A stretch of 64,000 bases of DNA from Elusimicrobiota bacterium (GTDB lineage: Bacteria > Elusimicrobiota > Elusimicrobia > UBA1565 > UBA9628): the NCBI GenBank assembly GCA_030696455.1, contig JAUYSH010000039.1:379-64378 (forward strand), written 5' to 3'. The notes below the pieces were generated by a model. It was given only the letters and a program-made list of their open reading frames with translations. It ran no database searches and was not told where the DNA came from. The translations under genes and the position numbers were made by a program. Shown here one piece after another: positions 48,789-49,051 of this stretch (the first letter of the stretch is position 1; every line of letters starts with the position of its first letter).

Positions 48789-49051
48789 GTCAATAGGACA
48801 GAGCTCTCCGCCCTCCAGGTTTTGTGGAAGTTGGCACGAAACCAGACTCCCAAGGGAGGCGTGGGCTTTTGACGACGGTCGCTCCTGCTGATATTCGCGG
48901 GTTGGTTACCGCATGACCCTTGTGCGTCACGGGGCTGCCTCGCTCTAGGATCGAGCGTCGACTCCGAAGAGCCGGCTCTTAACGCAGTCGAGGATTCCCC
49001 TGACCTCTGCCCACGCCTCGCTTGTGAATCCGGTTAACGCCTAGCGGCCGC
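48789..49051 (-). ncRNA. candidate IS-encoded guide RNA (seekRNA/bridge-RNA-like) in the 3' non-coding end of the IS
   Basis: About 260 nt non-coding between the transposase stop and the IR. An 11-bp long-range pairing (48856-48866 with 49009-49019). An 8-nt match of 49037-49044 (minus) to the target flank 50257-50264. Inference only. Confidence 0.3.

What the first reader, a model, noticed from the sequence alone, without database searches (positions are those of the whole stretch)
48789..49051. Structured ~260-nt non-coding 3' end of the IS: candidate guide (seekRNA / bridge-RNA-like) element matching the attC target
- Between the transposase stop (49052) and the IS end there is about 260 nt with no convincing ORF. 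The 5' non-coding end is only about 90 nt.
- IS110-family recombinases have recently been shown to use an element-encoded RNA to recognise both target and donor DNA. In IS1111-type elements this RNA is encoded downstream of the transposase.
- Here the region has an 11-bp long-range pairing: GAGGCGTGGGC at 48856-48866 with GCCCACGCCTC at 49009-49019.
- It also has a local palindrome, GAGCCGGCTC at 48970-48979.
- Directly after the stop codon, in the sense of the transposase, comes CUAGGCGUU (49044-49036). Its first 8 nt are identical to the plus-strand flank CTAGGCGT (50257-50264), which forms part of the restored attC R' box.
- The guide function is inference only.
Basis: inference. Interest (0 to 1): 0.7.

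Follow-up and report, generated by a model that had tools for sequence, protein, structure and literature searches.

The report
Guide RNA gene of attC-targeting IS

Summary
Window 48773-50258 (minus strand) is an intact 1,486-bp IS1111-type insertion sequence. It sits inside the R' core (GTT|AGGC) of an integron attC site.

Its 279-nt 3' non-coding region holds a ~190-nt structured RNA (48845-49038, minus). In 44 related elements, 26 of 37 base pairs show compensatory changes. A covariance model built from them finds the RNA downstream of the transposase in 28 further relatives.

One arm has an internal loop with two strands:
- **5' strand:** CUGCGUUA (48987-48980) is complementary to the right flank T|AACGC.
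- **3' strand:** AUCCUAGA (48951-48944) equals the left flank CCT plus the first three IS bases.

Both strands co-vary with each element's own flanks (0/10,000 permutations). They also predict the insertion site in held-out loci.

The second arm carries AUAUCAG, which matches the circle junction.

This is the IS1111 seekRNA / bridge RNA architecture (Siddiquee 2024; Durrant 2024). Its specific guide (CUAGGCGUU, 49044-49036) lies in an unconserved leader, and the match is at chance level. Verdict: new member of a known kind.

The parts
48773..50258 (-). Complete IS1111-type insertion sequence (1,486 bp) inside the R' core of an attC site. There is a 1-nt boundary ambiguity: T on the plus strand, A in the sense of the IS.
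   Evidence: Subterminal inverted repeats with 7-nt and 3-nt extensions. Removing the element restores GTT|AGGC. The same end architecture (AGACAnn...CATATC) is found in 43 relatives.
49052..50161 (-). Transposase gene (369 aa) of the DEDD / IS110-family RNA-guided type, with the motif GLVPSQYSSG.
   Evidence: Pfam PF01548 and PF02371. NCBIfam NF033542, 265 bits. 54% identical to the ISSfr2 transposase, 49% to ISCARN28, 29% to ISKpn4.
50239..50251 (.). Left subterminal inverted repeat (ATGGTTGCTTGAA in the sense of the IS), preceded by the 7-nt extension AGACACA (50252-50258).
   Evidence: (I3).
48776..48788 (.). Right subterminal inverted repeat, followed by the 3-nt extension ATC (48773-48775).
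   Evidence: (I3).
48845..49038 (-). Conserved structured RNA (bridge RNA / long seekRNA). It is a three-way junction with helices P1 to P6.
   Evidence: cmsearch gives 156 bits and this is the only hit in the window. RNAalifold and pair counts. MFE -84.2 kcal/mol, z = -3.6.
49009..49030 (-). P1, 5' strand.
   Evidence: All 17 pairs of helices 1 and 2 show compensatory changes.
48845..48866 (-). P1, 3' strand.
   Evidence: helices 1 and 2.
48989..49000 (-). 5' strands of P2 (GGGG, 49000-48997) and P3 (CCUCG, 48993-48989), which close the target loop.
   Evidence: helices 3 and 4 (99% and 98% of cells paired; compensatory GC/CG/AU/UA). Coordinates.
48980..48987 (-). Guide 1 (5' strand of the internal loop), CUGCGUUA. 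It pairs with the IS-sense top strand T|AACGC(c)G, that is, the right flank (the attC arm) plus the base before the crossover.
   Evidence: Alignment columns 64-70 are complementary to flank positions RF+6 to LF-1 in 81-98% of 44 loci. Own target 7.1/8 against 4.3 for other targets, 0/10,000 permutations. It predicts the site in 21 of 22 held-out loci.
48953..48978 (-). P4, a variable hairpin between the two guides.
   Evidence: The base of the helix covaries (helix 5). Length and sequence vary across the family.
48944..48951 (-). Guide 2 (3' strand of the internal loop), AUCCUAGA. [quoted passage not shown]
   Evidence: Columns 117 and 116 equal flank positions LF-1 and LF-2 in 98% and 84% of loci. 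Own target 3.0/5 against 1.96, 0/10,000 permutations.
48931..48942 (-). 3' strands of P3 (CGAGG, 48942-48938) and P2 (CCCC, 48934-48931).
48873..48929 (-). Second arm: P5 (UGACG at 48929-48925 with CGUCG at 48877-48873), an internal loop, and the P6 hairpin CGGUAACCAACCCG (48911-48898).
   Evidence: helices 6 and 7 (C-G to U-A switch in 16 sequences). The loop sequence is nearly invariant.
48888..48894 (-). AUAUCAG in the 3' strand of the second loop. It equals the last five bases of the right end (ATATC) plus the first two of the left end (AG), which is the circle (donor) junction.
   Evidence: Nearly invariant in 44 sequences. In L049 the right end is ATAGC and the RNA reads AUCGCAG, the same T-to-G change. 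This is a single case, so the assignment is inference.
49039..49051 (-). Unconserved leader between the stop codon and the RNA.
   Evidence: Not conserved in L001 or L003; the match is at chance level.
48788..48793 (-). TTGACT, a -35-like hexamer just inside the right end. Together with CACAAT (50255-50250, left-end bases 4-9) it would form a junction promoter with an 18-nt spacer once the element is a circle.
   Evidence: TTGAC is at a fixed distance from the end in 42 of 44 relatives, and CAnAAT is in the left end. There is no promoter in the linear element. This is inference by analogy with ISEc11 Pjunc (PMC11187229).
48766..48772 (.). Right target (plus strand CGGCGTT, IS-sense AACGCCG): the end of the interrupted attC.
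50259..50265 (.). Left target (plus strand AGGCGTA, IS-sense TACGCCT): the rest of the R' core and the start of the next cassette.

Best explanation
The 279-nt region downstream of the transposase gene encodes the guide RNA of this IS1111-type element. Durrant et al. call this RNA a bridge RNA; Siddiquee et al. call it a seekRNA.

**Structure.** The RNA (about 48845-49038, minus strand) folds into a three-way junction closed by a long stem, P1.

**Arm 1, the target loop.** P2 and P3 lead to an internal loop, followed by the variable hairpin P4. The internal loop carries the two target guides.
- The 5' strand, CUGCGUUA, base-pairs with the IS-sense top strand of the target from the base before the crossover into the right flank (T|AACGC...). 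This is the conserved arm of the attC site.
- The 3' strand, AUCCUAGA, has the sequence of the top strand of the left flank (CCT) followed by the first three bases of the IS (AGA). It would therefore pair with the bottom strand. The AGA could hold the exchanged donor strand, in the manner of a handshake guide.

**Arm 2, the candidate donor loop.** P5 leads to a second loop and the hairpin P6. This loop carries AUAUCAG, the sequence of the joined right and left ends. It is the candidate donor-binding loop.

**Proposed cycle.** The element excises as a circle. A promoter assembled across the junction (TTGACT, 18 nt, CACAAT) then drives the transposase and the RNA downstream of it. The transposase-RNA complex inserts the circle at T|A in sites that match both guides. 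Here that site is the R' core GTT|AGGC of one attC in the cassette array.

**Shown here (by sequence comparison):** the structure, the covariation of both guides with the flanks, and the ability of guide 1 to predict insertion sites.

**Inferred:** transcription and processing of the RNA, its binding to the transposase, donor recognition by arm 2, and the handshake role of AGA.
For: **Family features.** The element has all IS1111 features.

**Structure.**
- 37 consensus pairs, 26 with compensatory changes.
- 95.8% of cells are paired against 76.8% after shuffling, and 0/500 shuffles reach the observed value on all five measures. When partners are slid by 1-3 columns only 32-49% are paired.
- The window copy folds at -84.2 kcal/mol, z = -3.6.

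[quoted passage not shown] These include an Azospirillum plasmid. It finds the RNA exactly once in the window.

**Guide-target covariation.**
- An unbiased scan of every RNA column against every flank and end position returns guide 1 columns as complementary to RF+2 to RF+6 and LF-1, and guide 2 columns as identical to LF-1 and LF-2, as the top signals.
- Permutation tests give 0/10,000 for each guide. The effect persists among 28 distinct guide 1 sequences.
- In 21 of 22 held-out loci, the 7 nt after the CATATC end match the reverse complement of guide 1 at 5-7 positions.

**Agreement with the literature.**
- The order of the guides (top-strand-pairing segment 5' of the bottom-strand-pairing segment, flanking a hairpin) is what Siddiquee et al. 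report for IS1111 seekRNAs, including the attC-targeting ISKpn4, ISPst6 and ISPa25 (PMC11187229).
- Durrant et al. predict bridge RNAs in the right end of 93% of IS1111 elements. They drew one for ISCARN28, whose transposase is 49% identical to this one (PMC11208160).
Against: - No RNA or protein data exist for this element.
- Rfam 15 has no matching family.
- No promoter or terminator consensus is found in the linear element. The IS is oriented against the cassette array, so host read-through from the cassette promoter would not produce the RNA.
- Guide 1 has one mismatch to the occupied site at +6 (predicted AACGCAG, found AACGCCG).
- Guide 2 matches only 3 nt of the left flank here.
- Donor pairing rests on an almost invariant motif and one covarying case (L049). 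The 5' strand of the second loop shows no convincing register against either IS end (and manual inspection).
- The 44 sequences are related, so the shuffle statistics overstate independence. The slid controls and the held-out test do not share this weakness.
Confidence: 0.85

Rival explanations
1. One reading: the target guide is CUAGGCGUU, directly after the stop codon (49044-49036), and pairs with the left junction or the R' box.
For: There is an exact 8-nt identity with the plus-strand junction CTAGGCGT, and a 7-nt overlap with GGCGTTA.
Against: - 316 of 3,000 shuffles of the leader do as well.
- L001 (89% identical transposase, same guide 1) and L003 have unrelated sequence at this position, with no match to their own left flanks.
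- Across the family, leaders match their own targets no better than other elements' targets.
- The segment lies almost entirely outside the covarying structure: only its last three bases (49038-49036) fall within the modelled RNA span, in unpaired positions.
Confidence: 0.04
2. SeekRNA-only model. The RNA reads only the target (and the target-derived flanks during excision). The second arm is a protein-binding scaffold. The IS ends are recognised by the transposase through the subterminal inverted repeats, not by RNA pairing.
For: - Loop 2 is nearly invariant, so there is no covariation to show pairing.
- No RNA column tracks the variable part of the subterminal repeats in a consistent register.
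- Siddiquee et al. describe only target matches for IS1111 seekRNAs and suggest that end recognition differs from the IS110 type.
- Their predominant RNA is short (82-96 nt), about the size of arm 1 here (70 nt).
Against: - AUAUCAG in loop 2 equals the right-end/left-end junction exactly. It occupies the position in arm 2 that corresponds to guide 2 in arm 1.
- L049 carries the same T-to-G change in both its end and its RNA.
- Durrant et al. report potential donor-binding nucleotides in IS1111 RNAs.
Confidence: 0.3
3. The region is not a guide RNA. It would be a structured 3' UTR or terminator, a set of transposase-binding DNA sites at the IS end, or a small ORF (for example 48790-48930, minus, 46 aa).
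For: Stop-free stretches are present in the region. IS ends do bind transposases.
Against: - Compensatory base-pair changes point to selection on RNA or single-strand structure, not on coding or duplex DNA sites.
- Loop nucleotides track each element's own insertion site, which none of these alternatives predicts.
- There is no terminator motif.
- The variable segments have indels that are not multiples of three.
Confidence: 0.03

Closest known systems
IS1111-family seekRNAs (ISEc11, ISPa11, ISKpn4, ISPst6, predicted ISPa25; Siddiquee et al. 2024, PMC11187229)
   Same: - Encoded in the long non-coding region downstream of a DEDD transposase, in an IS with subterminal inverted repeats and 7-nt and 3-nt extensions.
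- Two short target-matching segments flank a hairpin, with the top-strand-pairing segment on the 5' side, and their target matches overlap at the insertion point.
- No target duplication, and a junction promoter.
- ISKpn4, ISPst6 and ISPa25 also target attC sites.
- My own reading of the ISKpn4 non-coding region in L082 shows the same layout: CAAUCAU, hairpin, GUUUGAA, against the target TTGAA|TGAATTG.
   Different: - The transposase is only 29% identical to that of ISKpn4 over 205 aa.
- Model R1 scores at most 5.6 bits on the ISKpn4 locus, so the RNAs are not alignable.
- ISKpn4 sits about 10 nt 5' of the GTT core, with its transposase gene in the same direction as the attC. This element sits inside the core (GTT|AGGC) and in the opposite orientation.
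IS110-family bridge RNA (IS621; Durrant et al. 2024, PMC11208160; Hiraizumi et al. 2024 and 2026), including the predicted right-end bridge RNAs of IS1111-group elements such as ISCARN28
   Same: - A 150-250-nt RNA with two stem-loops, each with an internal loop.
- The two strands of one loop pair with opposite strands of the target on either side of the crossover and overlap at it.
- A second loop carries donor-junction sequence.
- A promoter is rebuilt across the circle junction.
- The ISCARN28 transposase is 49% identical to this one.
   Different: - The RNA is at the 3' end of the element, not the 5' end.
[quoted passage not shown]
- The shared core is a single A (left-end base 1 and right-flank base +1 in all 44 loci), not the dinucleotide CT.
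- The ends have long subterminal repeats.
- Donor pairing is not demonstrated here.
IS1111-attC group (ISPst6, ISPa21, ISKpn4, ISUnCu1; Tetu & Holmes 2008; Post & Hall 2009; named from the reference lists of PMC11187229, the papers themselves are not held)
   Same: Site- and orientation-specific insertion into integron attC sites by an IS1111-type element.
   Different: This is a different transposase lineage (the ISSfr2/ISCARN28 clade), with a different insertion point in the attC and a different orientation. Within its clade only some members target attC-like hairpins. Others carry different guides and sit in unrelated sequence.

Membership tests
IS1111 group of the IS110 family | DEDD (RuvC-like) N-terminal domain plus the PF02371 C-terminal domain, with the GL-P----S(T)G motif | tested here: met
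   PF01548 (64 bits) and PF02371 (71 bits). NF033542, 265 bits. GLVPSQYSSG is present in the translation.
IS1111 group of the IS110 family | Subterminal inverted repeats, with short extensions of 7 nt on the left and 3 nt on the right | tested here: met
   A 13-bp perfect repeat at 48776-48788 and 50239-50251, with extensions AGACACA and ATC. The same is seen in 43 relatives.
IS1111 group of the IS110 family | The longer non-coding region lies downstream of the transposase gene | tested here: met
   279 nt downstream against 97 nt upstream.
IS1111 group of the IS110 family | Site-specific insertion without target duplication | tested here: met
   Removing 48773-50258 restores GTT|AGGC with no duplicated bases, apart from a 1-nt boundary ambiguity. 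Neighbouring intact attC sites serve as reference.
IS1111 seekRNA / IS110-family bridge RNA | A conserved secondary structure in the non-coding region next to the transposase gene | tested here: met
IS1111 seekRNA / IS110-family bridge RNA | Two loop segments complementary to opposite strands of the target, overlapping at the insertion point and covarying with it | tested here: met
IS1111 seekRNA / IS110-family bridge RNA | IS1111-type order: the top-strand-pairing segment is 5' of the bottom-strand-pairing segment | tested here: met
   Guide 1 (5') is complementary to the top strand and guide 2 (3') is identical to it. The rule is taken from PMC11187229.
IS1111 seekRNA / IS110-family bridge RNA | A second loop that base-pairs with the donor (the joined IS ends) | tested here: inconclusive
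   AUAUCAG equals the right-end/left-end junction, with one covarying case (L049). The ends are too conserved for a test, and no register was found for the 5' strand.
IS1111 seekRNA / IS110-family bridge RNA | The RNA is made, binds the transposase and is required for circle formation and insertion | not testable with these tools
   This needs RNA sequencing, co-purification and transposition assays.
IS1111 seekRNA / IS110-family bridge RNA | A match to a curated RNA family model | tested here: not met
   Rfam 15 gives no relevant hit, even at E up to 10. The published bridge-RNA covariance models are not available here.
IS1111-attC group (ISPst6, ISKpn4, ISPa21) | A transposase closely related to ISPst6 and ISKpn4 (members share about 74-90% identity) | tested here: not met
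   29% identity over 205 aa to the ISKpn4 transposase. Group identities come from the supplement of PMC11187229.
IS1111-attC group (ISPst6, ISKpn4, ISPa21) | Insertion at the group's fixed position and orientation in attC | tested here: not met
   In L082, ISKpn4 sits at TTGAA|TGAATTGTTAGAT and runs in the same direction as the attC. This element sits at GTT|AGGC in the opposite orientation.
IS1111-attC group (ISPst6, ISKpn4, ISPa21) | The target is an integron attC site | tested here: met
   The interrupted site is one of four related attC sites downstream of an IntI-like gene.

The most novel reading that the evidence does not exclude
The ISSfr2/ISCARN28-like clade to which this element belongs would include a second lineage of attC-targeting RNA-guided insertion sequences. 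It would be evolutionarily independent of the classical IS1111-attC group and widespread in environmental integrons.

This lineage hits the R' core itself (GTT|RRRY), in the opposite orientation to the classical group. Guide 1 reads the conserved attC arm, and guide 2 reads the first bases of the next cassette, so the element selects particular cassette junctions.

The 28 distinct natural guide 1 sequences in 44 loci, and the 'flank + AGA' form of guide 2, would then give a natural retargeting series. They would also give a handshake-like rule for IS1111-type RNAs that has not been described explicitly.
Probability: 0.45. Interest if true: 0.45.

Novelty: new member of a known kind. Interest (0 to 1): 0.35.

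Why it matters
- **Annotation.** The work shows exactly which nucleotides of an uncharacterised environmental IS read its target. The insertion into one particular attC (R' = GTTAGG) and not its neighbours (GTTCGA, GTTCGG) follows from two 3-8-nt RNA segments.
- **A family model.** It supplies an alignment and a covariance model for an RNA family that is absent from Rfam. It also supplies a table of natural guide-target pairs that could serve engineering of IS1111-type recombinases.
- **Integron biology.** RNA-guided targeting of attC sites has arisen in more than one IS1111 lineage.
- **Limits.** None of this changes the known mechanism. The value lies in annotation and comparison.

Tried and rejected
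- **Rfam 15 scan** at permissive E-values over 47000-52000: only chance hits, one of them on the UUCG hairpin.
- **Promoter and terminator scan** of the linear element: nothing found.
- **Other copies or relics in the window:** none by BLAST or by the covariance model.
- **Other candidate target sites:** the only other GCGTTAGG (52287) is not in an attC.
tested and rejected as chance.
- **P1 resembling the target:** P1 contains AGGCGU and ACGCCU, which resemble the target. I rejected a link because L001 has the same stem but a different left flank.
- **The run AAUCCUCGAcuGCGUUA resembling the attC arm GATCCTCG-GCGTTA:** the CCUCG is the invariant P3 strand in all relatives whatever their target, so I treat the resemblance as coincidence.
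- **Pairing of the 5' strand of loop 2 with the IS ends:** column 156 tracks left-end base 4 (98%), but this is one clade-level change. No register gives more than 3-5 pairs in most loci.
- **RNA columns correlated with the variable part of the subterminal repeats:** these are not in a consistent register and look phylogenetic.
- **Stop-free stretches in the non-coding region:** uninformative in GC-rich DNA.
- **Literature:** Tetu & Holmes 2008 (PMC2447020) is not held. Figures of the published seekRNA and bridge RNA folds are not held, so the comparison with ISKpn4 and ISCARN28 rests on text, protein sequence and my own reading of an ISKpn4 locus.

Full report
**1. The element**

The minus-strand ORF 49052-50161 (369 aa) carries the two Pfam domains of IS110-family transposases (PF01548, PF02371). 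It also matches NCBIfam NF033542, 'IS110 family RNA-guided transposase', at 265 bits.

A perfect 13-bp inverted repeat, ATGGTTGCTTGAA, lies at 48776-48788 and 50239-50251 (I3). In the sense of the IS it is preceded by AGACACA on the left and followed by ATC on the right.

Taking 48773-50258 as the element (1,486 bp) joins the flanks to ...GATCCTCGGCGTT|AGGCGTACTT. This is a complete attC 3' end with an R' core GTTAGGC. It matches three neighbouring intact attC sites, GGCGGCAGATCC-N4-GCGTT. One base at the boundary is ambiguous.

So this is an IS1111-type element with subterminal repeats, 7-nt and 3-nt extensions, no duplication, and non-coding regions of 279 nt (3') and 97 nt (5'). It is inserted in the R' core of an integron attC and oriented against the cassettes.

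**2. The observation**

- The 11-bp pairing and both copies of CTAGGCGT(T) exist as stated.
- The palindrome is one base off (48969-48978).
- The IS end is 16 bp further out than the finding's start coordinate.

**3. Relatives**

A scan of one genome per species returned 80 loci encoding transposases 89-52% identical to this one, mostly from environmental MAGs.

In 43 of them the same end architecture could be located automatically: left end AGA(C/T)Ann followed by the repeat, and the repeat followed by ATC at the right end.

The right flank begins with A in all of these. In most it reads AACG(Y)TTGAG-like. Several sites fold as attC-like hairpins with RYYYAAC...GTTRRRY ends, for example L013, L020, L024, L049, L072 and L074. 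Other relatives sit in unrelated sequence, for example TGAT|AGTACTTTC in L045, L047, L058 and L071.

**4. A conserved RNA**

Aligning the last 300 nt of these elements shows a strongly conserved block.

- RNAalifold predicts 37 pairs, 26 of them with compensatory changes.
- 95.8% of pair cells are standard pairs, against 76.8% after shuffling. None of 500 shuffles reaches the observed value on any of five measures. Sliding the partners by 1-3 columns drops pairing to 32-49%.
- The window copy folds at -84.2 kcal/mol (z = -3.6) into essentially this structure.
[quoted passage not shown] These include an Azospirillum plasmid. In the window it finds the RNA only at 48845-49038, minus strand, at 156 bits.

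**5. Anatomy in the window**

All coordinates are and the RNA is read on the minus strand.

| Part | Coordinates | Notes |
|---|---|---|
| P2 (arm 1) | GGGG 49000-48997 with CCCC 48934-48931 | |
| P3 (arm 1) | CCUCG 48993-48989 with CGAGG 48942-48938 | |
| Internal loop, 5' strand (guide 1) | CUGCGUUA, 48987-48980 | |
| P4 (arm 1) | 48978-48953 | Variable hairpin; contains the palindrome |
| Internal loop, 3' strand (guide 2) | AUCCUAGA, 48951-48944 | |
| P5 (arm 2) | 48929-48925 with 48877-48873 | |
| P6 (arm 2) | CGGUAACCAACCCG, 48911-48898 | Hairpin |
| Loop 2, 3' strand | contains AUAUCAG, 48894-48888 | Nearly invariant loop |

**6. The guides**

I compared every variable RNA column with every position of the flanks and the ends. 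The strongest signals were:

- Columns 64-68 and 70 are complementary to right-flank positions +6 to +2 and left-flank position -1, in 81-98% of loci.
- Columns 117 and 116 are identical to left-flank positions -1 and -2, in 98% and 84% of loci.

| Guide | Match to own site | Match to other sites | Permutations reaching the observed value |
|---|---|---|---|
| Guide 1 | 7.1 of 8 | 4.3 of 8 | 0 of 10,000 |
| Guide 2 | 3.0 of 5 | 1.96 of 5 | 0 of 10,000 |

The contrast persists among 28 distinct guide 1 sequences.

As a prediction test I used 22 loci outside the model alignment that have a recognisable CATATC end. In 21 of them the 7 nt after that end match the reverse complement of guide 1 at 5-7 positions. 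Examples are AGTGCCT, AGGAGTC, AGGGGGC and AACGTAG, each at 7/7.

In the window:
- Guide 1 pairs with T|AACGC-G, six contiguous pairs plus one, with a mismatch at +6.
- Guide 2 equals CCT|AGA.

The neighbouring attC sites have the same right arm (AACGCAG, a perfect match to guide 1). However, they have G instead of T at -1 and TCG or CCG instead of CCT. That would explain why this attC is the occupied one; this last step is inference.

**7.

CUAGGCGUU lies in the 13-nt leader between the stop codon and the RNA; its last three bases (49038-49036) overlap the 5' end of the modelled RNA span.

- The leader is not conserved in L001 or L003.
- 10.5% of dinucleotide shuffles of the leader give a match at least as long.
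- Across the family, leaders do not match their own targets better than others' targets.

I therefore treat this match as chance. The target's internal repeat, GGCGT-T-AGGCGT, makes such a match easier to get.

**8. Comparison with what is known**

Siddiquee et al. (PMC11187229) showed the following for IS1111-family elements, including the attC-targeting ISKpn4 and ISPst6:
- The RNA is required for circle formation and insertion.
- It contains a top-strand-pairing segment 5' of a bottom-strand-pairing segment, and the two overlap at the insertion point.

Durrant et al. (PMC11208160) described the two-loop bridge RNA of IS621. They predicted bridge RNAs in the right end of 93% of IS1111 elements, and ISCARN28 was one of the elements they drew.

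| Comparison transposase | Identity to this one |
|---|---|
| ISSfr2 | 54% |
| ISCARN28 | 49% |
| ISKpn4 | 29% |

The architecture found here matches these descriptions, including the reversed guide order relative to IS621.

It is not a member of the classical IS1111-attC group:
- The transposase is distant.
- R1 does not detect the ISKpn4 RNA.
- In plasmid pAR-0405, ISKpn4 sits at TTGAA|TGAATTGTTAGAT, in the same direction as the attC. This element sits inside GTT|AGGC, in the opposite orientation.

**9. What remains inferred**

- Transcription of the RNA. There is no promoter in the linear element. A TTGACT, 18 nt, CACAAT promoter would form on the circle. TTGAC is conserved at this position in 42 of 44 relatives.
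- Processing of the RNA and its binding to the transposase.
- The role of arm 2. AUAUCAG equals the joined ends, and L049 shows the same T-to-G change in its end and in its RNA. But the ends are too conserved for a real test, and no pairing register was found for the 5' strand of that loop.
- The AGA in guide 2. It equals left-end bases 1-3 and could act like the handshake guides described for IS621 (PMC13626964). This is an analogy only.

**10. Verdict**

The finding is real and its interpretation is right in kind. The anatomy needed correction. The mechanism has been known since 2024, so this is a well-supported new member of a known kind. The modest added value is a distinct attC-targeting lineage and an RNA family model.

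Noticed in passing
window 45469-47091 (+), with cassettes to about 51390: The longest ORF here has Phage_integrase and Phage_int_SAM_4 domains in its C-terminal 320 aa. This is an IntI-like tyrosine recombinase, and the true start is probably internal. 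It lies upstream of a short cassette array with four related attC sites (about 48447-48530; 48697-48772 continuing at 50259; 50799-50878; 51306-51386). It is on the same strand as the cassettes, which is unusual for integrons.
   Followed up: partly
window 47372-47704, 47936-48438: The cassette genes include a PemK/MazF-type toxin (47372-47704). There is also an overlapping small gene pair whose second member has a weak CopG-antitoxin match (48169-48438). The stretch between the first two attC sites (about 48531-48696) has no convincing ORF.
   Followed up: partly
window 48788-48793 and 50250-50255: TTGACT just inside the right end and CACAAT at left-end bases 4-9 would form a sigma-70-type promoter with an 18-nt spacer once the ends are joined in a circle. 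TTGAC is at this position in 42 of 44 relatives, and the left end reads CATAAT in many of them.
   Followed up: partly
window 48882-48898 and 50314-50330: A 17-nt inverted repeat that is 88% complementary (CTCCTGCTGATATTCGC / GCTAATATCGGCAGGAG). It links the loop-2 region of the RNA (containing AUAUCAGCAGGAG) with a site 56 nt outside the left end, inside the next cassette's ORF. My rough estimate, made by hand, is about 0.1 such matches expected by chance. It could be a footprint or a coincidence.
   Followed up: no
window 48980-48995 (minus) compared with 48760-48772 (plus): The RNA run AAUCCUCGAcuGCGUUA resembles the attC arm GATCCTCG-GCGTTA beyond guide 1. The CCUCG is the invariant P3 strand in all relatives whatever their target, so this is probably coincidence.
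   Followed up: yes
L038, L040, L045, L047, L052, L071 (and L058, 404 nt): One subclade has left end AGATATA and targets such as TGAT|AGTACTTTC. Its 3' non-coding region is about 500 nt, with about 200-230 nt of extra sequence between the stop codon and the RNA. The content of the extra sequence was not examined.
   Followed up: no
L082 1840-1885 (ISKpn4 in pAR-0405): The non-coding region of ISKpn4 reads CAAUCAU, GAUCCUCGGGAUC, GUUUGAA: two segments flanking a small hairpin. They resemble the reverse complement of its right flank (A|TGAATTG, with one base missing) and its left flank (TTGAA). This layout fits the published description of its 82-nt seekRNA.
   Followed up: partly
L009 2676-2692 and its right flank: In L009, 10 nt of the right flank (CGATTTAATA) recur in the 5' strand of P1, and their complement recurs in the 3' strand of P1. 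The sequence is AT-rich and is conserved across that subclade whatever the target, so this is probably chance.
   Followed up: partly
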